Part shown: positions 1,138 through 17,135 of the stretch, one piece after another | How positions within the stretch are numbered: position 1 is the stretch's first letter | How the letters are laid out: the number at the start of each line of letters is the position of its first letter | DNA from: Octopus vulgaris | Taxonomy: Eukaryota | Direction of reading: 5' to 3' | DNA: 64,000 nt | NCBI GenBank assembly: GCA_951406725.2 | Contig: OX597820.1 | Coordinates: 19,592,001-19,656,000 of the forward strand | Translations under genes and position numbers: made by a program | The notes under the pieces: generated by a model | Told to the model about the DNA's origin: nothing | The model's database searches: none | The model's input: the letters and a program-made list of their open reading frames with translations, nothing else

Positions 1138-1902
1138 AATGGGGATGATGATAAATAAAATTTATTTCTAAAATTAAAATAAGACTCAAATGTATTGTTA
1201 ATGTATGGTTTATTCATTGTCGTTCTGTGTTCATTGCTGTGAATACTCGAGATATAAAGTTGTTTTGAGCTTACACTTAAATGATAATGATACCTGCACT
1301 TGTCTCTTTTCATTATTTAGTAAATAAATTAAGAATTAATATTTTTTTTATTTCTCTCATGGTGTGTTATTATTGAAGGATTTTCTTTTTATTTGCGTCT
1401 TTCTATGTATTAAAACCAGAAATTATAAAACGATATTAAGATATTGTTGATGATGATCATAAACACCAAACAAAATCCTAATACTTTTATTCCGTCTTCA
1501 CCAACCAAGTTTGTTTATTTTACAACAAATCATGTGATGATTCTATTGCCATGGTAACCACTTTATTAGCACAATCACACACACAGAGCAATTCTCACAC
1601 ACACACATTCAAAAGCTTAGTTACATGTTTATACGAAATTCCATTACATAGAGAAGTTCTATTTATCAAACTTGCTTATTGCTTAATCATACTTTGCTGT
1701 GTAATCAGTGTTTGGAAACTAACGAAGTCTTTATGTATCATTCTAGTTAAGACGTGTCCTAGCTTCTGTCTCTTTCATCATATGCGTCTGGTGTTGTGCA
1801 GTAGTGCACTAATATTATGCAGTGTTGCAATTTATTATTTCTTTTTTTTGTTTTTCAATCAACTATATTTAATAGTGTAGTACATTTAATGAAACCTACC
1901 AT

Positions 1903-2230
1903 AGGTGCAAGCATGGTTGTGTGGTTAAGAAGTTTGCTTCCCAGTCACATGGTTTCAGGTTCAGTCCCACTGTGTGGCACCTTGGACAAATGTCTTCTAT
2001 AGCCCTAGGCTAACAAAAGCCTTGTGAGTGAATTTGGTGGACAGAAAGTGTGTGAAAGCCTGTATGTATGTGTATCATGTTTGTTTTGTTCACTGCTTGG
2101 CAAATGATGTTGGTTTATTTACATCCCCATAACCAGAAGTAATATTAGTACTGGCTTAAAAGAGACACCTTTGTTTGACTAAAGCCTTCAGGTCAGTGCT
2201 CCAGCATGGCCACAGTTCAACAATAAAAGA
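1903..2230 (+). mobile_element. SINE family A (tRNA head, CORE-like accttgggcaagt block), diverged
   Basis: tggttgtgtggttaag...ggttcagtcccactg...gcaccttggac...ccagcatggccacagt; matches younger copies such as 46083-46482. Confidence 0.85.
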
Positions 2231-2999
2231 TGTCTTCACAGTGAAGCAACCCATTTATTTGACATATTCCTTATAGCTTCATACACATACACACGCACAC
2301 GCAGGTTTTTATTTTTTTTATTTTACTATTTACGATGTTTCTATCTTCTCCGTTTTCAAGATGTTTTGTCTGGACAATTATTTTAGCAACCTTGAAGTTC
2401 TTCTCCCTCCTCCTTGCATACTTCCTCCACTTGTAACTCTGGCTTTATTTCTTGTGTCTAAAGCATATCAAATGAAAACTGGTTTCTGGGTTGGTTGCAT
2501 TTACTTAAACCAGAGACAGAACCTTAGACATACTGCAAGGTTGTGGACATTCTATTAGAATGTACATACATGTGTGTTTTCTCTCTCTCATCTCATCTAG
2601 ACTGGTTGCAAACCAAAAGCCACTGAAAATCCACTTGACCCAACCAGCCAATAATAATAATAATAATAATAATACTGTAACATAACAAAGTGTAATATCA
2701 TTGCCACCAGGGTAAAGTGGGTAAGGGTGTTATGTAATATAAAATCCATATGCTGAGATTCCGTTTGTGAAGCCAGACGGCATATACCTTGATGTGATCA
2801 TTAAAGCCTGGAAGGGAGAAATTGTTCTGGGTGTCATGTGGGATGTCTCTTCTCCTTTCAGTAAGTGGCACATTTGCCTCATATCTTGGTAATCTAAGGC
2901 TTGCTGCATTTGTGCTTACCTACCCACAACACAAAAATACAAGGTGAGAGTTTTATACATGGAGCTTGAGTCTTGTTAATATTGGTGCTGGTTCCTGCC

Positions 3000-3134
3000 A
3001 AGGACGACTTCGCCTTTCATCCTTTCGAGGTCGGTAAAATTAAAATTAAGTACCAGTTGCATACTGGGGTTGATCTAATCGACTGGTTCCCACCCCAAAA
3101 ACCTCGGGCATTGTGCCTAGAGTAGAAAAGTATA

Positions 3135-3165
<31 letters not shown>

Positions 3166-3382
3166 TCATTAAGGTGGTAGGCTGGCAGAATCGTTAGCAT
3201 GCCAGGCAAAATGCTTGGCGTTTCATCCGTCTTTAACATTCTGAGTTCAAATTCCTCTGAGGTTGACTTTACTTTTCATTCTTTTGGGGTCGATAAGATA
3301 AGTATCGTTGGAACACTGGGGTTGATGTAACCAACTTACCCCCTCCCTTGAATTTGCTGGCCTTGTGCCAGAATTTGAAATT
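3000..3382 (+). mobile_element. Two SINE family B copies separated by (TA)n
   Basis: gcctttcatcctttcgaggtcg...aagtaccag at 3012-3057; head ggtggtaggctggcagaatcgttagc at about 3173. Confidence 0.8.
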
Positions 3383-3489
3383 AGTATTGATATCGGCGAG
3401 ATCTCGTTCAAAATGGTGCTAGCTTCTTGTGCCTCGCTACAAATATAATAAAAGTTGACAGTTTTTTGTTTTTTACCTTGTAAACAAAT

Positions 3490-3610
3490 AATGCAATATT
3501 ACTTAAGCATTTCATAATGTTTCTTTCTTTTCTGGAAACTCACCACAAACTGGCAGCTGATGGCTCACAGACCAACACCGGTCTGTGGACCACCTCTTTG
3601 AATAGCACTG
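3490..3610. mobile_element. hAT/Charlie (MER5-like) MITE end fragment
   Basis: accggtctgtggaccacctctttgaatagcactg resembles a hAT terminal sequence ending in CACTG. Confidence 0.45.
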
Positions 3611-5754
3611 GTCTAGAGTATACAATACCTGCCCTTCCTGCCAAAATGACAAAGTCATTTTAGCTGCAGTATCTTTGATCATAGATTTACTTGACCAGGG
3701 CTGGTCTGAGGCTAAACAGCAACTAATCTCACAAAAGTCACACATCTTCAATTTGTGTACATAATAAAAAAAATTTAATTTACTATCTCACTCTATTAAA
3801 TGACTTTAAATCATTATTTAATTATTTTTAAGCCACCCTTCAGTCATCAGTTCCTTTTTAATTATAATTTCACAGTTAATGATATTTATCCATTAAGCTA
3901 ACAAGATTGTCTTGATTTTGTTTTGGTAAATGTTTGTGGCATTTGCCAGCAATAATCATTTCTAACAGAGGCACAACAGGCCACAGATTTGGCAGGAAGT
4001 GTTCGTTGGTTACGAAGTATAAAAGTCAAACCCCAGCAAGATTTGAACTCAAGAACGTGAAGGATCATAACTAAATACTGCCAGGCATTCTGCTGTCCAG
4101 TGCTTCACTAACGATTTTGCCTATCCATCATCTTGATATTTGTCTATGACTTTATAAACTGGAGTTGAAAAACATTGTTTATAGAAACAAAGAAAACTAT
4201 AGTCTGTTTACTGTAGCAAACCTCTGGCACCTGGCTATGTCTCACTAACAAGCTTTTAAAATTGTAAGCACACAGCACAGCTGTAGATTTGACTATTTTA
4301 TTTTCATCATCATCATCATCAGTTTTTATCGTCATTATAATTACACAGGTGGTGTGGCAGAATTAGTAAAGTGCTGTGTGTTGTATTTAGTTACTTTGTA
4401 AGTTCAAATTCCTGTAGAGCCATCTTTCTGGGGTCAATGAAAAGTACCTTCCAAATACAGTGGGAGCAATAAAACTGAACTATCTCAGAATTTGGATGTC
4501 CCTGTCTCAGAATTTGTACTTTTTCTGCCTTTGGTAAAAAATCATCATCATCATCATCAGTGGAAAACTTCAAGTGAGCTGGTAGCATCGTTAGCACTCC
4601 AAGCAAAATGCTCAGTGGCATTTCTTCTGACACTTTACATTCCAAGTTCAAATTCTACCAAGATTTTTGACTTTGCCTTTCATCCTATCAGGATTGATAA
4701 AACAAGTGCTAGTTTAGTATTGGGGGTCAATGTAATTGACTTCCCCCTCCCCTCAAAATAGCTGGCCCTGTGCCATAAATTGGAAGGAATCATTAGAAAA
4801 CTTCAAAATTTTTACTTTTGCACTTCAGTTTTTTTCATTCTGTGAAAACAAAAATCTTTCATGGAATTTCAGAATTGTTTTATCCGACTGCTAATTGAAA
4901 AAGCTCCACCAGCTACTTAAATTGTCATTTACATATCCATACAAAACTAGTATAAATTTCCCTACAATATCATTCTACAAATAAACAATCACATCATCAA
5001 AGTCTCAGAGATTGATTGCATGATTGCTATAAAATGATGTGAATAAATGACCATAACATTTGACAGAATAATCTAAATGCTAAAGGATTAAACTTATTGT
5101 CTCATTTATTTGGGGTATCTTTGGACATTTCATGTTCTGATATTTTAAAAAAATAAATATCTACTAGAAATTAACACTTTCACCACAAGCTAACAGATGT
5201 CAATTATGCAGTTCTCTCTCTCTCTGCTAAGAGTAGGGAAATTAAACCTCTTTGTTGTAGGATTTAATTACACCTTAATTAAGTGAAATCTTTTATTTGT
5301 TTCAGTCATTGGGATGTGGCCATGCTGTGGCATCACCAAATTAACTCCCGTATTCGTCTTTTTTTTTTTAAAGTCTGACACGTATTCTATTGGTCTTTCA
5401 GGGAAACTGTTAATTTATGGGGATGTAAACAAACTGTCATCAAGTTGTCAAGTACTGGGAGAGATGACATACTCAAAGAAATACACACACAAACATAGAT
5501 AGATAGAAGTATGTATGTATGTATACACACACACACATTCACACGGTTTCTGCCTACCAGAATTACTCAGCAGGTATTGGTCAGCTCAAGGTACCACACA
5601 GTCAGACTGAACACACAACCATTTCTTGTACATAGCATTGACAGATTGGAATAGGAACTACCAATCTTTTTGCAGTAACCCAGGACTATACAGAGACTTG
5701 TACAAACTGTAAGCAGCTGTATGTTACAGTACTTCAATCCAGTTCCTTCCTTCT

Positions 5755-8798: not shown

Positions 8799-9215
8799 GT
8801 GTAGCAGGAGTGGCTGTGTGGTAAGTAGCTTGCTTTCGAACCACATGGTTCTGGGTTCAGTCCCACTGCGTGGCACCTTGGGCAAGTGTCTTCTACTATA
8901 GCCTCGAGCCAACCAAAGCCTTGTGAGTGGATTTGGTAGAGGGAAACTGAAAGAAGCCCATCGTATATATATATATATATGTGTTTGTATGTTTGTGTGT
9001 CTATTTGTCCCCACCATCACTTGCTGGTGTGTTTACGTCCCCACCATCACATGCTGGTGTGTTTACGTCCCCGTAATTTAGCAGTTCGGCAAAAAGAGAC
9101 CGATAGAATAAGTACTATGCTTACAAAGAATAAGTCCTGGGGGTCGATTTGTTCGACTAAAGGTGGTACTCCAGCATGGTAGCAGTCAAATGACTGAAAC
9201 AAATAAAAGAGTAAA
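8799..9215 (+). mobile_element. SINE family A, full length, with a 28-bp internal duplication
   Basis: Complete head-microsatellite-tail; gtccccaccatcac...gctggtgtgtttac is repeated at about 9007-9066. Confidence 0.92.
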
Positions 9216-9624
9216 TAGCTATATTTTATAATATACATCCACAGATACAAACAAAAGTAGCTGGGGTGTACATATAAATTTACTTACTCCCGTTGTTTAG
9301 CTCCAACTCCGCTCAAATCCATGTACTTACCTCACGAAAGCAAAAGATTTGGTTGTTATTTTACGCAGGTTGGGAGACCTTGCAAATGCCCCCCCACACA
9401 TACACACACCTTCATTTTCTTTTCTTATTCAGTTAAGGAGTGTTTCACAGTTGCTGCTGGTTTCTTTTTCTTTTTTTTCTTAAGGTGGCTCTCTTTATGG
9501 ATTGGGAGCAGTCCACTCCATGCCTTGGCTAAATTCTCTTTATGTGTGTAAACATCTAAATAAATAGTTTGTTTGTGTGTGTGGTACTGTAGAAAGCTGT
9601 TTTATATATATATTTTTTTATATA

Positions 9625-10038
9625 GGCGCAGGAGTGGCTGTGTGGTAAGTAGCTTGCTTACCAACCACATGGTTCCGGGTTCAGTCCCACTGCGTGGCAC
9701 CTTGGGCAAGTGTCTTCTAACTATAGCCTCGAGCCGACAAAAGCCTTGTGAATGGATTTGGTAGACGGAAACTGAAAGAAGCCCGTCGTATATATGCATA
9801 TATATATATGTATTTGTAGGTATATGTCTGTGTTTGTCCCCCCCCAACATCACTTAACCGATGCTGGTGTGTTTACGTCCCCGTCACTTAGCGGTTCGGC
9901 AAAAGAGACCGATAAGTACTAGGCTTACAATGAATAAGTCCTGGGTGTCGATTTGCTCGACTAAAGGCGGTGCTCCAGCATGGCCACAGTCAGTCAAATG
10001 ACTGAAACAAGTAAAAGAGAGTAAGAGAAAAGAGAGAT
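9625..10038 (+). mobile_element. SINE family A, full length, young
   Basis: ggcgcaggagtggctgtgtggtaag...gactgaaacaagtaaaagag; CpGs retained. Confidence 0.95.
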
Positions 10039-11298
10039 ATCAAGTTGATTGAGTAGTGTGTGTTTGTTGGTTAAATTAAAGGTTTGACTTATACAAAAAA
10101 AAGGACCCCCCCCCTCCAACAAATTTTCTTATTTTATATATTTATTTATATGTTTGTTTGTTTTTTATAATGGTCAGTGGGTATCACTTAATCCCTGTCC
10201 ACCTAGTTGCCCTCTCCTTGTTTAGGAGTATCACAAGAAGAAAAAGAAAAAAAAGTAAAAAAAGAAAGAAAGAAAATAATACATTAGTGATGGGTAGGGC
10301 TATGTTAGTTGCTATCTAGTCAGCTTTTAAAAACTGGTTGTTTTTATAGAAAGATGGATATATGATTTGGTCTCTGCTTATACCTTAAAAGTTCTCCACC
10401 GGGGAAAAAAAATATGCTTTACAATCACACAGTAAGTTAAAATTATAATTTCTTCTACACCCACCCTCCTCTCTTCATTCATATATCGACAGAAATTTTG
10501 GCATCTTTCATGTAAAAGTGTTTTGACAAATTATTTCAAGTAACGCATTTAAATTTATATTTTGTTCTTATCAAAGTTGGTATTAATTAATACTCAGAAC
10601 TGCTTTCTTGTTTAACCTGCCTTGTACTCACTTCCTTTACGTATTAATTTGCCATGAAATCCACGTTCTTATATCTTTGCTTTGTAACCACATGGTTTCG
10701 GGTTCGAGTCCCGCTGCATGGTACCTTGGGGGAATGTGTTTTCTGTCTTGTAGTCCCATGCTTGGTAAGCAGTGTCGATTTTACGAATTTAAATAATAAT
10801 AATGATAATATTTTATAAGCTTAAGGCTTTATAAACGATCACCGTGCACTGACTAAGGTAAATGGTCTAATAAATAAATAAATATTATACATACACGTGC
10901 ATGTATGTTTAATGTATTTGTCTTTCGTTTGTGTACATCCCCATAACTTAGCAAACGAGGCCAGACCGAAACCTGGATGTTCTGTTCGAACAAATTATAC
11001 TGCAGTAAACACCATGAAAGAAACTCCTATTTTTGGTACAAAATGCACTCTTGTTTATGTCTGGGGGGGTCATTTTGTTTCACTAAACTTTTCACTGTAA
11101 AGCGCCGTAGCATGGCCACAGTCCAGTCATTAACGCAAACAAGTAAAGCATACAATATATATATATATACATACACTGTATTGACATTTTTCTAATTTTT
11201 CAGATTTTTTATATGCTAGGCTACTGGTTTTAAATTGATATTAATTAAATTAATATTCAATTTATCTCCCTCATTATTTAAATATATATATATATATA

Positions 11299-11429
11299 CA
11301 GGGTGTCCCAAAAAAATGTATACACACCTTAAATAATTGTAAATTTGTTATTCTTTGTAAGCCTAGTACTTATTCTATCGTTCTCTTTTGCCGAACCACT
11401 ATGTGTATACATTTTGGGGGGACACCCTG
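11299..11429. mobile_element. Tc1/mariner-type MITE with TA flanks and a captured SINE fragment
   Basis: TIRs cagggtgtcccaaaaaaatgtatacaca / tgtgtatacattttggggggacaccctg, flanked by TA; interior 11348-11400 is SINE A tail (minus). Confidence 0.8.
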
Positions 11430-11432
11430 TAT

Positions 11433-11640
11433 ATATAAAATTAAATAAGGGTAGAAATTGATATTAATCCAATTAAAACCAGTGGCTTAGCATATTTTTA
11501 AAAAATCCGAAGATTAAAAATTATTTTACATACAAAAATTTAGAGGGCTGACCACTAAAAGTGGACAGCCTATATTTGACGTCTATGTTTAACAATATAG
11601 GCTGTCCGCTTTCAGTGGTCAGTCCTCTAAATTCTGTATA
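11433..11640. mobile_element. TA-associated fold-back element, with an inverted partial copy at about 11185-11285
   Basis: About 40-bp arms aatttagagggctgaccactaaaagtggacagcctatatt / aatataggctgtccgctttcagtggtcagtcctctaaatt (11536-11632). Confidence 0.65.
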
Positions 11641-12848
11641 TATATATAAGGTGATCTAGATGTGTTAATCTTAAACTTAATAACCTAGCTGGTTAGATCT
11701 AAACCAGCTAGTAAGAAAACACTTCTTTGCTCAAAACGAAAAACAACAAAAACCCAGACTTTTTTTTTTAGAGAATTAATCCTTATCTACTCAGTGCAAA
11801 TCTAACTTTTTTTTTTTTTGCTGCTGCTGCTGGTACTACTACTACTTGTAATATAAACCATTTTCTTCCCCCATCTCTCTGCTTTTTGGAATTGCATTTA
11901 TTACTACTATTACTGCTACAACTACTACTACTATTACTACTACTATACACACATATATATATAAAGTTGCAATAATTTAGGAATCTTTGAATTCTCTGCT
12001 ATTCTAATGTTCAATTGTATAATAAACAAGATGCTATATATAATAATATTGATTGGGTAAAATATCTCCAAACGCCTATAATTTTTTTAATACTTTTTTG
12101 CTTATTTTATTTTATTTTAATTATGTTCTTTACTTTATTTATTTTTTTCCTTTTGTTTAAGATGTATTCAAGTGTTTTAATCTCATTTATTCAATTAGGC
12201 TTCTCGTTTCGCAAGCTTTTTATTTTATTCATCGGGTCTTTCATTAGATGAGTGAATATCTGTGGCATAGACTGGTGGTAGGTAAAAAGAATAAATAGAT
12301 AAATAAATAAAATTAAAGAAAGATAGAAAGAAAGAAGGAAAGCTAGTAAACTAAAGTTGGCTGCATCTGTGCGACCCACTACATTATATCTCTTACTCTC
12401 TCTTTCTGCCTCTCTCGCTCTCTGCTTCTCTCTCTCTCTCTTGTCCTGCATACTTTACACACTTCTCACTGCTTGTATGTGCCACATTAGCTACATCAGT
12501 GATAATCATCCAGATAATAGAAAGAGAATTTTGTCTTTGTGTTGTCATTCATGTTGTGCTTATTTCTGTTCTGTGTCTTTCTTTCTCTCTCTCCCTCCCT
12601 CCATCCCTCTTTCAATCTCTCTCCCTCTCTCTCTCTCTCTATTTCTCTCTGTGCTTGCCTTTACAAAAGAAGTCTAGTAGTTCATTTTCAGCAGTAAGGA
12701 TGGGGTTGTTTTTTTTCTTTTTTATAATGTAGAAAAGCAGCTTCTGTTCTTGTTCTTGTTTTGCCTCACTTTTTTTTCAGACTAACACACACACACTCTC
12801 TCTCGCTCTCTTCCTCTCTCTCTCTCTATCTCTTTCTATCTTGGCTAG

Positions 12849-12859
12849 GTCAAACCAGG
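12849..12859 (+). other. Candidate 11-nt microexon (GTCAAACCAGG)
   Basis: ACTAAC branch-like motif at 12781, about 50-nt pyrimidine tract, TAG acceptor (AG 12847-48), donor AGG|GTAAGC at 12860; lies in TE-free DNA. Confidence 0.45.
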
Positions 12860-13269
12860 GTAAGCTGTGTTGGCTTTGAACTCCAGCCTTATATTGTTTA
12901 CAAAGCTACAAAGCTCTCCCCTCCATTTATATTGTATAGGGAGGTCAGTTTACTAGTACTTTTTTTCAGGGTTGTCTTATTGCTTTCCAACCAGAAAAAA
13001 AAAGGGGGTAAAGGTGTTATATATAGACAGATGTGTGTATGTTTTGTGTATTTCAAACTGAAGGATTGCTTGGAAGCTTGAGGCAAGATATATAAAAATC
13101 TGCCAATTTATTGTTGCTCCAGCAAGAACCTGACAGCAGCCCCTATTTAAATACTGTGTATATTAAATATTTATCCCTCACTGGAAGGAGTCCTTTCTGT
13201 GTTGGCCCCTACCTATAACAGAAACGACATAGTTTTACATATTCGTACACACACACACAGACACACGTT

Positions 13270-13760
13270 TTTTCTTTATTCTGTTGCTTGTTTCAGTTAT
13301 GACTGCGGCCATACTGGAGCACTGCCTTAAAAGGTTGTTTTTATTTTCATTCAGTCGAACAAATCAACCTCAGGACTTATTCTTCGTAAGCCTACTACTT
13401 ATTTTATCAGGGGTGTTTTTGCCGAACCGCTATGTTACGGGGACGTAAACACACCAACATCGGTTGTGAAGCGATGGTGGGGTGGAGGGCATAAGCACAA
13501 AGACACACGAACACACTCACAAGTAAATAATGTATATGGTAAGATCAGCTGTGGTGGATATATAATACTGTACATTTCGGATTATATATATATATATATA
13601 TGACGGGCTTCTTTCAGTTTCCGTCTGTCAAATCCACTCACTAGGCTTTGGTTGGCCCAAGGCTATAGTAGAAGACACTTGCCCAAGGTGCCACGCAGTG
13701 GGACTGAACCCGGAACCATGTGGTTGGGATTCAAGCTACTTAACACACAGCGGCACCTGT
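13270..13760 (-). mobile_element. SINE family A, full length
   Basis: Reverse complement of the family A consensus; Penelope-like tail fragment inside its microsatellite at about 13537-13590. Confidence 0.9.
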
Positions 13761-13847
13761 ATCTTCTAAGGGCACAGCCTTGAACAATTGCTAGTAGAAT
13801 GAATGAAGCCTAGTACAATTTTTTCGTTTTATATATATATATGTATA

Positions 13848-14205
13848 GGCGCAGGAGTGGCTGTGTGGTAAGTAGCTTGCTAACCAACCACATGGTTCCG
13901 GGTTCAGTCCCACTGCATGGCATCTTGGGCAAGTGTCTTCTGCTATAGCCCCGGGCTGACCAACGCCTTGTGAGTGGATTTGGTAGACAGAAACTGAAAG
14001 AAGCCTGTCGTATGTGTTTGTATCCCTAGCATTGCTTGACAACCGATGCTGGTGTGTTTACGTCCTCGTCACCTAGCGGTTTGGCAAAAGAGACCGATAG
14101 AATAAGTACTGGGCTTACAAAGAATAAGTCACGGGGTCGATTTGCTCGACTAAAGGCGGTGCTCCAGCATGGCCGCAGTCAAATGACTGAAACAAGTAAA
14201 AGAGT
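13848..14205 (+). mobile_element. SINE family A, full length
   Basis: ggcgcaggagtggctg...gactgaaacaagtaaaagag. Confidence 0.95.
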
Positions 14206-14221
14206 ATACCTTTTATACATA

Positions 14222-14320
14222 TGTGAGTTGAGAAAAATCTGGAGTTGAATTTGGGTCTTTGGGTCCCTCTTCCCCAAACCCAAACAAACAAATTCAATTC
14301 CAGATTTTTTCCAACTCACT
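14222..14320. repeat. Fold-back inverted repeat (about 30-bp arms) in a TA-flanked insert
   Basis: gtgagttgagaaaaatctggagttgaatttg / caaattcaattccagattttttccaactcac. Confidence 0.75.
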
Positions 14321-14880
14321 CAAATATATATAAAATGTATGAATTTTCTGTAAAATAAATCATTCATGAGGAATCCCTCAAAGGGAGAAAAGTGCTAAAT
14401 AAATACTCTTTTTCCAAATCCCGACTATTATTTTCTTCATGCACACACATGACAGGCTTCTTTCAGTTTCTCTCTAGCAAATCCAATCACAAGACCTAAG
14501 TTGGCCTGAGGCTCTGTAGTAGAAGACATTAGTCGAAGGTCCTGAGGATTAAACATTTTACCATAGAGTCACACCTAAGCCTCTCTCTATATATATAAAA
14601 TCAAAATCACCCCATTTGATTTATATGGATAATACCATACCAAATTCTGGTGCCTTAAGTACCATATTCATCTGAATCTAAATTTTGCTGAACTTATATA
14701 TATATAGACATGGCCTGGACCAATCTTTGGTCAAAGCAAGTTTATATATATGTATGTATATTAACTCTACTTTTAATTACTCTTTTTAGTTGCTCCACTA
14801 TCTTATTAATTATACTACACTGCTATCTCTTCCATGATAAAAGCTTCATCATTTCCATAGGGGTAGCTTCACAAAACAGT

Positions 14881-14934
<54 letters not shown>

Positions 14935-15590
14935 TATACACACACTAGCCAGTGGACAAATGAAAGAAAAAGGCACTTTTAGTAGCAGTTTCTGTTGAAA
15001 GCTTTGAAAAATTACTCAACCAATATTGTTTTTAATTATAAAAGCAATGTTGCTCTGACTGGTAGGATGGCTATATTTAATTACTTTTCAGTATCTGTTG
15101 GGGATTTTGTTAACCTTGGAAATGTCTGAACTCCACTTGACCTTATATTAGTTGCAGTATCTCCACAAAAAAAAAAGAAAGAAAAAATAAATAAATAAAT
15201 GAAGAGCGAACTCCTTGTTATCAGAGACAAGAAATACCTTGCTTGTATGCAGTGTTATCTCATCTCATCATTAGGTTCTGAGTTCAAATGTTAGTAGGGC
15301 TGATAAAATATTTACCAGTCATTTATTTAGTGATGCCCAGATGATCTACATTTAATTACTTTTACAGGTGTTGGTGTAAACCATATATATATATATAGAG
15401 AGAGAGAGAGGGAGTGATAGATATAGATGATTGGAGCCTGGTGCAGCCATCTGGTTTGCCAGCCCTCAGTCAAATCATCCAACCAATGCTAGCATGGAAA
15501 GTGGACATTAAATGACGATGATGATGATATATATATATATGTATGTATATTTATGTTAATTGAAGTGTACAGTATTATATGTCCATTATG

Positions 15591-15678
15591 GCTGATCTTT
15601 CCACTTGGTTTCACACTAGGGGTTCAATGGAGTGTTAGGTAACGGTCCAATTATAACCTTGTGCTCTTCAGAGGTGGC
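15591..15678 (-). ncRNA. Type I hammerhead copy with a mutated cleavage triplet (GAA)
   Basis: Minus strand: gccacct CUGAAGA gcacaagguu...aaccccuagugu GAAA ccaagugg AA agaucagc. Confidence 0.5.
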
Positions 15679-16028
15679 TGTTATGGAATGAAATATGGGG
15701 ACTGTCAGTTCGCGTAAGCATGGCAAGAATGATAAACCTGGTATAGAACTCAATATGCATATGTTTCTGGACAAAGTGTTAGCTGAGTATAGAGCAGTAA
15801 TTAGAAAGAGACATGACAAAGGAATAAGTGATTATCTTATGAACTTCATTATCTTACAGTTATTTCTGCTATAAGATGCAGTGGGCTCATAGTTGAGTGC
15901 TTGAATAGCACCTTATAGCTTCATCAGAGCCTTGAATATGAAGTGCAATTTATTTAGTAGTAAGCTAACGAAGTTCATAAGATAATAATTTATTCCATTG
16001 TCATCTCTCTGTCTTATACATGTATGTA

Positions 16029-16070
<42 letters not shown>

Positions 16071-16375
16071 AATTAGAAAATAAACACCTTTTATCAATTA
16101 AATTATACCGTAGAAAGATTGAATATAAGATAAAACATATAACGATGATTAAGTAATGTACAAAATAATAAATAAAACGTAATGTATATCTGTATGTATG
16201 TAAGCCCTCAAAGAATCCATAATTCAGGAAGAAATGCACACCTGTATCTGTCAGTAGAGTGGGTATATTAATCAAAGTGTACAGTATTATATATCTGTTA
16301 TGGCTGGTCTTACCAATCAGTTTCACACTAAAGGTTCAACAGTGTTAGGTAGTCGCTGTATTTCATTCCATACCT

Positions 16376-16465
16376 GCTACCTCTGAAGAGTGCAGGGTTA
16401 CATAATTGGACTGTTACCTAACACTCCATTGAACCCCTAGTGTGAAACTAATTGGTAAGATCAGC
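16376..16465 (+). ncRNA. Type I hammerhead ribozyme, core intact
   Basis: CUGAAGA (16383-89), stem II GUGC-AGGGUU...AACCCCU-AGUGU, GAAA (16444-47), stem III CU-aauu-GG, GUA (16455-57), imperfect stem I gcuaccu/agaucagc. Confidence 0.6.
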
Positions 16466-17135
16466 TGTAATGGATGTACACTTCGATTAACATATCTATG
16501 TATTTGTATATATACACACACACTGTGGGCTTTTATAGTTTTTGTCTGCCAGATTCACTCACAAGGCATTTGTGAGACTAAGGTTACAGTAGAAAACTCT
16601 TGCTCAAGTTGCTGCACATAGGGACTGAATCCAAAACCTTGTGGTAACAAAGTGAGCTTCTTAGCCACACTGACATACCTACATTTATATCTCTGTACAA
16701 CATATTTTAATTTACATAAAAACGAAGAATATTTTATGAAAGTATTGATATAAATGATGGTTGTATACAACAATATTATTGGTTTAGCTAAACTAGGGTA
16801 TGTCACACATGTTAGGTCATGTCAGATATGAATGAAATGTGTATTATTTAGTTGTGAGCTCTTAGAAAACATACATTGACTGGCTGTTTATTTAGGTAAA
16901 GCTTTCTGCTATGCATATTCTATTTATTGATCACATGAATATTTGGTATTCGCTATGAATTCAGGGGAAAAGTCAGAGGAGAGTTCCAGTACCTTGAAGT
17001 GTGTGTGTGTGCACGCGCATGTATGCATGTTGTTGAGAGCTTAGCATATAAGTAGGTATATTTATGTTTGTGTATGTGGGTGGATATACACTCACACACA
17101 CCTACACACGTATGCACGTGTTTGTGTTCCTGCAC

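What the first reader, a model, noticed from the sequence alone, without database searches (positions are those of the whole stretch)
15550..16500. Non-coding Penelope-like cassette with an intact type I hammerhead ribozyme in direct and inverted repeats
Seen: a unit of about 140 bp occurs three times (minus 15555-15695, truncated minus 16265-16351, plus 16355-16495). The plus copy has every conserved hammerhead residue in order: CUGAAGA 16383-89, a long stem II, GAAA 16444-47, a near-palindromic stem III (consensus ACCAAUUGGU) and GUA 16455-57. The minus copy keeps stem II with different pairs (GCAC/GUGU) but has GAA at the cleavage site. Established: Penelope-like elements carry minimal type I hammerheads with palindromic stem III in pseudo-LTRs that can be direct or inverted. 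Inference: this is a non-autonomous, ORF-less, retrozyme-like family with an unusually long stem II loop, and it could self-cleave the host pre-mRNA if the host is transcribed on +.
Basis: partly seen in the sequence, partly recalled or inferred. Interest (0 to 1): 0.75.

Follow-up and report, generated by a model that had tools for sequence, protein, structure and literature searches.

The report
Worn hammerhead ends of Hydra retrotransposons
These are old, decayed end-repeats of a known class of protein-coding jumping gene (Hydra-type Penelope-like elements); their self-cutting RNA motif has an unusually long extra hairpin, but this copy is predicted to be folded shut and unlikely to cut the host transcript.

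Summary
The hammerhead motif is real and at the stated places. The retrozyme reading is not supported. The unit is the pseudo-LTR of a Hydra-clade Penelope-like element: other copies run upstream into a GIY-YIG endonuclease and RT, and one locus shows unit, tail, start codon, RT and endonuclease in order. None of 56 sampled loci has a head-to-tail second copy; 10 have the inverted 5' copy typical of these elements. The copies decay neutrally: the 'different pairs' in stem II are CpG decay, and covariation does not beat shuffles. The plus copy's active fold costs 10 kcal/mol alone and 57 in context, because the inverted arm pairs with its core. The one unusual trait is helix II: a 54-nt extended hairpin in both families, against 10-21 nt in metagenomic relatives. 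The scan noted similar Penelope end-repeats elsewhere in this genome. Not tested for cleavage.

The parts
16351..16495 (+). HHR1: 5'-truncated (solo) pseudo-LTR copy of a Hydra-clade Penelope-like element, ending in a TA-rich tract
16383..16457 (+). Hammerhead core: CUGAAGA 16383-89, 54-nt helix II 16390-16443 (basal stem GUGC/GUGU), GAAA 16444-47, stem III 16447-56, predicted cut after 16457
16368..16478 (+). Stem I: two proximal pairs, internal loop, distal helices (5' arm 16368-82, 3' arm 16458-78); partly decayed
16183..16351 (-). Inverted 5'-truncated HHR1 copy starting inside helix II, with the ~80-nt tail (16183-16264) that is the start of the next element unit; antisense to the plus copy's core in a + transcript
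15552..15703 (-). Second HHR1 pseudo-LTR copy; cleavage triplet GAA (U16.1 lost), stem III broken; ends in (TA)n
15710..15957 (-). HHR2: unit of a second abundant hammerhead family (CUGAUGA 15927-21, 54-nt helix II with A.A at its base, GAAA 15866-63, GUA 15857-55); its 3' end abuts the 5' start of the minus HHR1 copy
15960..16017 (+). Inverted partial copy of HHR2, beginning at the GUA triplet
16021..16070 (.). (TG)n/(TA)n tract closing the left insertion; a (TA)n tract at 15528-15551 closes its other end

Best explanation
The repeated unit is the hammerhead-bearing end repeat (pseudo-LTR) of a protein-coding Hydra-clade Penelope-like retrotransposon, and the window holds old truncated copies that were likely pasted into TA repeats by the element's own endonuclease and reverse transcriptase and are predicted to be inactive as ribozymes today. 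Shown: linkage of the unit to RT and GIY-YIG remnants, the inverted 5' partial copies, two 3' ends (short, and with tail), TA-rich flanks, CpG decay, and a second family (HHR2) joined to one copy. Inferred: reverse transcription began inside uncleaved element RNA at either of two sites downstream of the ribozyme (as shown in vitro for Poseidon PAc, PMC11167929), usually stopped 4-55 nt upstream of the core, and often added an inverted partial copy. Inferred: in the active element the ribozyme cut at GUA, most likely as a dimer through the near-palindromic stem III. Predicted: in any + strand transcript of this locus the inverted arm pairs with the core and blocks cleavage.
For: Upstream extension into endonuclease in loci picked by the unit alone (L004, L007, L023, L026). 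The reverse search with the RT-EN linker gave 9 of 19 non-self loci with HHR1 within 1.5 kb, 8 of them downstream in sense. L127: inverted HHR1, HHR1, tail, 5' UTR, start codon, RWK, DKT, RT, CxCX5C linker, start of EN. By eye these remnants follow Hydra-1_Obim in the supplement of PMC8557442 closely. Arrangement census 0 of 56 direct, 10 of 56 inverted upstream. G12 is lost in 16 of 66 copies, 15 of them by G-to-A at a CpG; 11 of 66 keep core, G10.1-C11.1 and all basal stems. Highest identity between any two of 66 copies 93%, median 80%. Folding gaps: 3.3 kcal/mol for the CpG-restored majority, 10.1 for the window copy, 57.3 with the inverted arm.
Against: 17 of 27 pattern-picked copies start within 55 nt of the core and none between -55 and -178, which would also fit a short RNA copied on its own. 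The tree is star-like and its bootstrap had not settled, so a short lineage is not excluded. In the BLAST-picked set, core columns vary less than stem columns (9/352 against 72/1344); base make-up and the way copies were picked may explain this, but it was not resolved. G.U at 10.1-11.1 occurs in published Hydra consensus ribozymes, so that change alone does not kill the copy. No intact ORF was found, and no coding partner was found for HHR2. Folding energies are model predictions.
Confidence: 0.88

Rival explanations
1. The short unit is a self-propagating non-autonomous element (SINE-like or retrozyme monomer) transcribed from its own start about 15-45 nt before the core and mobilised in trans by the Hydra-clade protein.
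For: 17 of 27 copies are short with clustered 5' ends; about 1900 first-look candidates; animal retrozymes derive from Penelope pseudo-LTRs and include monomers (bioRxiv 10.64898/2026.07.22.740005).
Against: No direct repeat in 56 loci; both N7 variants occur in short and long copies (22:18 and 11:7) and the labels are mixed on the tree; all full copies span the cut site, so no circle junction at GUA was seen.
Confidence: 0.08
2. The plus copy is a working intronic ribozyme that cuts the pre-mRNA of a + strand host gene (a BCL9-like gene lies downstream).
For: All core residues and GUA are present; a BCL9-like gene on + starts 81 kb downstream or nearer (E 0.006); an exon-like stretch with AG/GT ends lies at 12781-12859 on +.
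Against: Active fold +10 kcal/mol alone, +45 to +57 with the upstream inverted arm, also in transcripts ending just past the site; all eight variable CpGs of the unit are decayed in this copy; no second sense copy nearby for a dimer; that the cassette lies inside that gene is not shown.
Confidence: 0.03
3. HHR2-HHR1 is one composite two-ribozyme element family rather than an accidental or template-switch junction.
For: The same flush junction occurs at L009; 2 of 56 HHR1 loci have HHR2 within 500 nt, far more than random placement would give.
Against: A junction pattern found only L009, a second pattern found none, and none of 39 other scored hits spanned the junction; L009's HHR2 is only 74% like the window's; Penelope-like elements are known to insert next to one another (PMC6765202).
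Confidence: 0.04

Closest known systems
Hydra-clade Penelope-like elements, especially Hydra-1_Obim (Craig et al. 2021, PMC8557442; passages, section 11, supplement parts 2 and 52 and search hits seen)
   Same: RT with RWK and DKT motifs, CxCX5C linker, C-terminal GIY-YIG, (TA)n targets, hammerhead near the 3' end, inverted 5' partial copies, tail. The tail resembles the first bases of the Hydra-1_Obim consensus by eye.
   Different: Different ribozyme sequence; helix II spans 54 nt whereas the listed Hydra ribozymes have loop 2 of 3-10 nt; 3' UTR of about 700 nt; tail about 80 nt rather than 30-40; family decayed.
Minimal type I hammerheads of metazoan PLEs (Cervera and de la Pena 2014, PMC4209133; parts 1-2 of 4 read)
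   Same: Type I, helix II of 7-8 bp at its base, palindromic helix III, mostly single dispersed motifs from truncated elements, opposite-strand pairs 100-700 bp apart.
   Different: Long paired extension of helix II; HHR1 has no extra base between positions 9 and 10.1; stem I has an internal loop and long distal helix.
Metazoan non-LTR retrozymes (PMC7229834, passages; bioRxiv 10.64898/2026.07.22.740005, part 1 of 5 and passages)
   Same: Small non-coding unit with a type I hammerhead, derived from or shared with a PLE pseudo-LTR.
   Different: Retrozymes are head-to-tail tandem repeats giving circular RNA; here 0 of 56 loci are tandem and the unit is attached to an ORF.
Poseidon PAc of the green anole (Frangieh et al. 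2024, PMC11167929; passages)
   Same: Two 3' ends downstream of the ribozyme that define a tail; copies made from uncleaved RNA; AT-rich targets.
   Different: Other clade; in PAc the ORF starts in stem II, here about 230 nt after the cut site.

Membership tests
Type I hammerhead ribozyme | CUGANGA, GAAA, NUH in order around three helices, helix I open | tested here: met
   Window plus copy and 42 of 66 copies keep the core; helices pair in 87% of cells.
Type I hammerhead ribozyme | Covariation in the helices | tested here: inconclusive
   None above shuffles among decayed copies (423 of 500). Between subfamilies two stem II pairs switch (C-G to U-A, G-C to A-U) in 2-3 of 8 divergent copies.
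Type I hammerhead ribozyme | Self-cleavage at NUH | not testable with these tools
   Needs an in vitro assay; only contigs, no raw stranded reads, were available.
Hydra-clade Penelope-like element | Single ORF with RT and C-terminal GIY-YIG endonuclease | tested here: met
   Remnants in order in L127, L113, L118-L121; broken in every copy seen.
Hydra-clade Penelope-like element | RWK and DKT motifs, CxCX5C linker, CxxC and CxH around the conserved E and N | tested here: met
   RWK and DKT in L127; linker and EN motifs in L007, L023, L119; definitions from PMC8557442 section 11.
Hydra-clade Penelope-like element | Hammerhead in the pseudo-LTR, (TA)n targets, partial-tandem and inverted copies | tested here: met
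   ATATAT follows the short end in 21 of 50 ends read, the tail start in 7.
Hydra-clade Penelope-like element | Placement in the Hydra clade on an RT tree with reference sequences | not tested
   Reference proteins were only read in the supplement and compared by eye.
Hydra-clade Penelope-like element (HHR2 family) | Linked RT and endonuclease ORF | tested here: inconclusive
   Shared upstream sequence reaches only about 250 nt; one of 59 loci has a Hydra-type RT remnant nearby, on the other strand and not shown to be linked.
Non-LTR retrozyme | Two or more head-to-tail units each with a hammerhead | tested here: not met
   0 of 56 loci within 1.5 kb.
Non-LTR retrozyme | No coding capacity in the family | tested here: not met
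Non-LTR retrozyme | Monomeric linear and circular RNA in cells | not testable with these tools
   Only unstranded contigs of guessed-RNA runs.

The most novel reading that the evidence does not exclude
Two abundant Penelope-type families in this genome carry type I hammerheads whose helix II is extended to exactly 54 nt. The extension could be a selected module (a docking arm replacing the usual loop I-loop II contact, or a binding site for the element's protein), and such ribozymes fall outside the spacer lengths of standard descriptors, so a class of long-arm hammerheads may be uncounted in animal genomes. The rare flush HHR2-HHR1 joins would record the reverse transcriptase jumping between RNAs of two families.
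Probability: 0.25. Interest if true: 0.45.

Novelty: new variant of a known kind. Interest (0 to 1): 0.22.

Why it matters
Mostly ordinary: Hydra-clade elements with hammerheads are described, including one from an octopus. What is added is a new family pair with a long helix II that I did not find among the published Hydra ribozymes or in five literature searches (Lunse et al. 2017 was not held and may bear on this). It also shows that the inverted 5' copy made during insertion can lock the ribozyme in an antisense duplex, which may help explain why such copies are tolerated in transcribed DNA. The family offers a simple test of whether a long helix II lets a Penelope hammerhead cut as a monomer.

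Tried and rejected
Rfam scan: no hammerhead model matched. Pfam: no useful match for the RT/EN remnants, their full-length relatives or the neighbouring gene's ORFs. Expression: no RNA holder on record was listed; contigs of four guessed-RNA runs on 9000-16900 were dominated by repeats, gave no start, end or strand and no clear splice joint, so they are no evidence either way. A sharp transcription start at one base was considered after but the unbiased set shows a 50-nt cluster, not a point. A composite HHR2-HHR1 family was searched three ways and found only once more. Covariation was tested and not found. Homology between the two 54-nt arms is unresolved: 21 of 54 identical in register, 99 of 2000 shuffles as good. 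No coding exon was recognised inside the window. Look-ups of earlier findings by place and by sequence gave nothing. My notebook's '10 of 19' counted the query locus; the right count is 9 of 19. Three rows (L081, L101, L106; deletions or insertions in the unit) were dropped from the 69 collected before alignment A1, and L082-L084 were treated as duplicates of L081.

Full report
Observation. The unit occurs as a minus copy at 15552-15703, a truncated minus copy at 16264-16351 and a plus copy at 16351-16495. The window lies at G000:C7:19592001-19656000 in a 2.8-Gb genome, probably an octopus (inferred from the likeness to Hydra-1_Obim and from earlier scan notes). The unit had 1926 first-look candidates, and a 24-nt core pattern matched exactly 191 times against 0 for the reversed control. 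Rfam gave no hammerhead hit, as expected for so long a helix II.

What the unit belongs to. Among the 29 best other copies, L004, L007, L023 and L026 continue about 1 kb upstream through a shared 3' UTR into a GIY-YIG endonuclease remnant, and L014 joins an RT-linker piece to the unit across a deletion. Searching with the linker peptide returned 19 other loci, 9 with the unit within 1.5 kb, 8 of them downstream in sense. In 27 independent loci picked by the core pattern alone, 10 reach 170-1090 nt upstream and 17 stop 4-55 nt before the core. L127 shows the whole partial-tandem layout: inverted copy, then 3' UTR and unit, tail, 5' UTR, start codon, RWK, DKT, RT, CxCX5C linker and the start of the endonuclease, broken by a SINE, frameshifts and a later insertion. 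These are the features given for the Hydra clade in PMC8557442 (section 11). By eye the remnants follow Hydra-1_Obim in that paper's supplement closely, but its ribozyme is a different sequence with an 8-nt loop 2. A longer-protein search gave 103 relatives of 600-900 aa. So the unit is a pseudo-LTR and the tail is the start of the next element unit.

Retrozyme test. Retrozymes are head-to-tail repeats (PMC7229834, passages; bioRxiv 10.64898/2026.07.22.740005, part 1 and passages). Of 56 loci none had a direct second copy within 1.5 kb, 10 had an inverted copy upstream (a lower bound; the script missed overlapping ones such as L012) and 10 had the tail. Short and long copies share both N7 variants and are mixed on a star-like tree whose bootstrap had not settled. 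The cluster of short 5' ends is the one result that favours a short RNA template; it is also what internal initiation on uncleaved RNA would give (PMC11167929, passages).

Ribozyme anatomy. In an alignment of 66 copies (three of 69 dropped for indels) the stretch between CUGANGA and GAAA is 54 nt in 62 copies and folds as one extended hairpin. Stem I has two proximal pairs, an internal loop and distal helices; stem III is a near-palindrome able to pair with a second molecule (-12.4 kcal/mol for the restored majority, -8.4 for the window copy). The structure pairs in 87.4% of cells against at most 38.2% when slid, but covariation does not exceed shuffles (423 of 500). A divergent ORF-linked subfamily has a continuous 8-bp basal stem with two switched pairs in 2-3 of 8 copies, the only sign of compensation. 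Eight CpG sites split into CG, TG and CA forms, which accounts for GUGC/GUGU in the plus copy and GCAC/GUGU in the minus copy. G12 is lost in 16 of 66 copies, and 11 of 66 keep core, G10.1-C11.1 and basal stems. Against full neutrality, core columns varied less than stems in the BLAST-picked set (2.6% against 5.4%).

Can the plus copy cut a host RNA? A BCL9-like gene lies on + 81-108 kb downstream (E 0.006 to BCL9 in the PDB), and an exon-like stretch lies at 12781-12859, so + transcription through the cassette is plausible but not shown; RNA contigs were uninformative. The active fold of the plus copy is 10.1 kcal/mol above the ensemble alone, against 3.3 for the restored majority, and 57.3 once the inverted arm is included; 13 of the 14 bases from GAAA to GUA pair with that arm at probability 0.94-1.0, also in transcripts ending just after the site. 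Cleavage is therefore unlikely. G.U at 10.1-11.1 alone would not settle this, since published Hydra consensus ribozymes have it.

The missed second family. 15710-15957 (minus) is a copy of HHR2, with 3174 first-look candidates and its own inverted partial copy at 15960-16017. It has a 12-bp basal helix II, A.A at 10.1/11.1 in 32 of 34 copies, palindromic stem III and again a 54-nt spacer. Mismatches at that position are common in listed Hydra ribozymes, but no coding partner was found. Its usual 3' end abuts the 5' start of the minus HHR1 copy; L009 has the same join, and further searches found no more. A template jump or insertion beside an older copy (PMC6765202, passages) both fit.

Novelty. 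In 14 metagenomic Hydra-type loci, 10 hammerhead-like motifs in 8 loci have spacers of 10-21 nt, and the Hydra ribozymes listed in PMC8557442 have loop 2 of 3-10 nt; a spike-moss PLE-X ribozyme with a 34-nt loop is the nearest listed long form. PMC4209133 (parts 1-2 of 4) describes 7-8 bp helix II and weak dimer cleavage. Five searches showed no description of a 54-nt arm or of these families; Lunse et al. 2017 was not held, and bioRxiv supplements were closed. Verdict: a real but decayed ribozyme of a known kind of element, with one modest structural variant. Interest 0.22.

Noticed in passing
window 38556 (+): A compact minimal hammerhead (CUGAUGA, extra A, 5-bp helix II, GAAA) of another Penelope-type family.
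   Followed up: no
window 12781-12859 (+); G000:C7:19689885-19716500 (L170, L172, L173): Exon-like non-coding stretch with pyrimidine tract, AG and GTAAG ends; a BCL9-like gene on the same strand 81-108 kb past the cassette. The window may be its long 5' intron.
   Followed up: partly
HHR2 family, L031-L060, L132-L156: Core positions 4-5 read TG 19, CG 10, CA 1 of 34 copies, so the source element may have had C at position 4 (CCGAUGA), a non-standard core.
   Followed up: partly
L009:1495-1863 and window 15700-15712: Flush joins of the HHR2 3' end to the HHR1 5' start at two independent loci; L030 has the two families tail to tail in one TA tract.
   Followed up: yes
L014, L088, L096: Internally deleted copies that join ORF or 3' UTR pieces directly to the pseudo-LTR.
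   Followed up: no
L081-L084 (G000:C1:21.18-22.30 Mb): Four near-identical loci with shared flanks: a recent segmental duplication.
   Followed up: no
L157:5800-7760 (-), L127:2047-2723 (-): Remnants of further, more divergent Hydra-type families next to HHR copies.
   Followed up: partly
window 13537-13600: A short further piece of the HHR1 3' end inside the window.
   Followed up: no
L131:sense 1599-4886: A 1096-aa open frame of an APE-RT LINE, apparently little decayed, beside an HHR2 copy.
   Followed up: no
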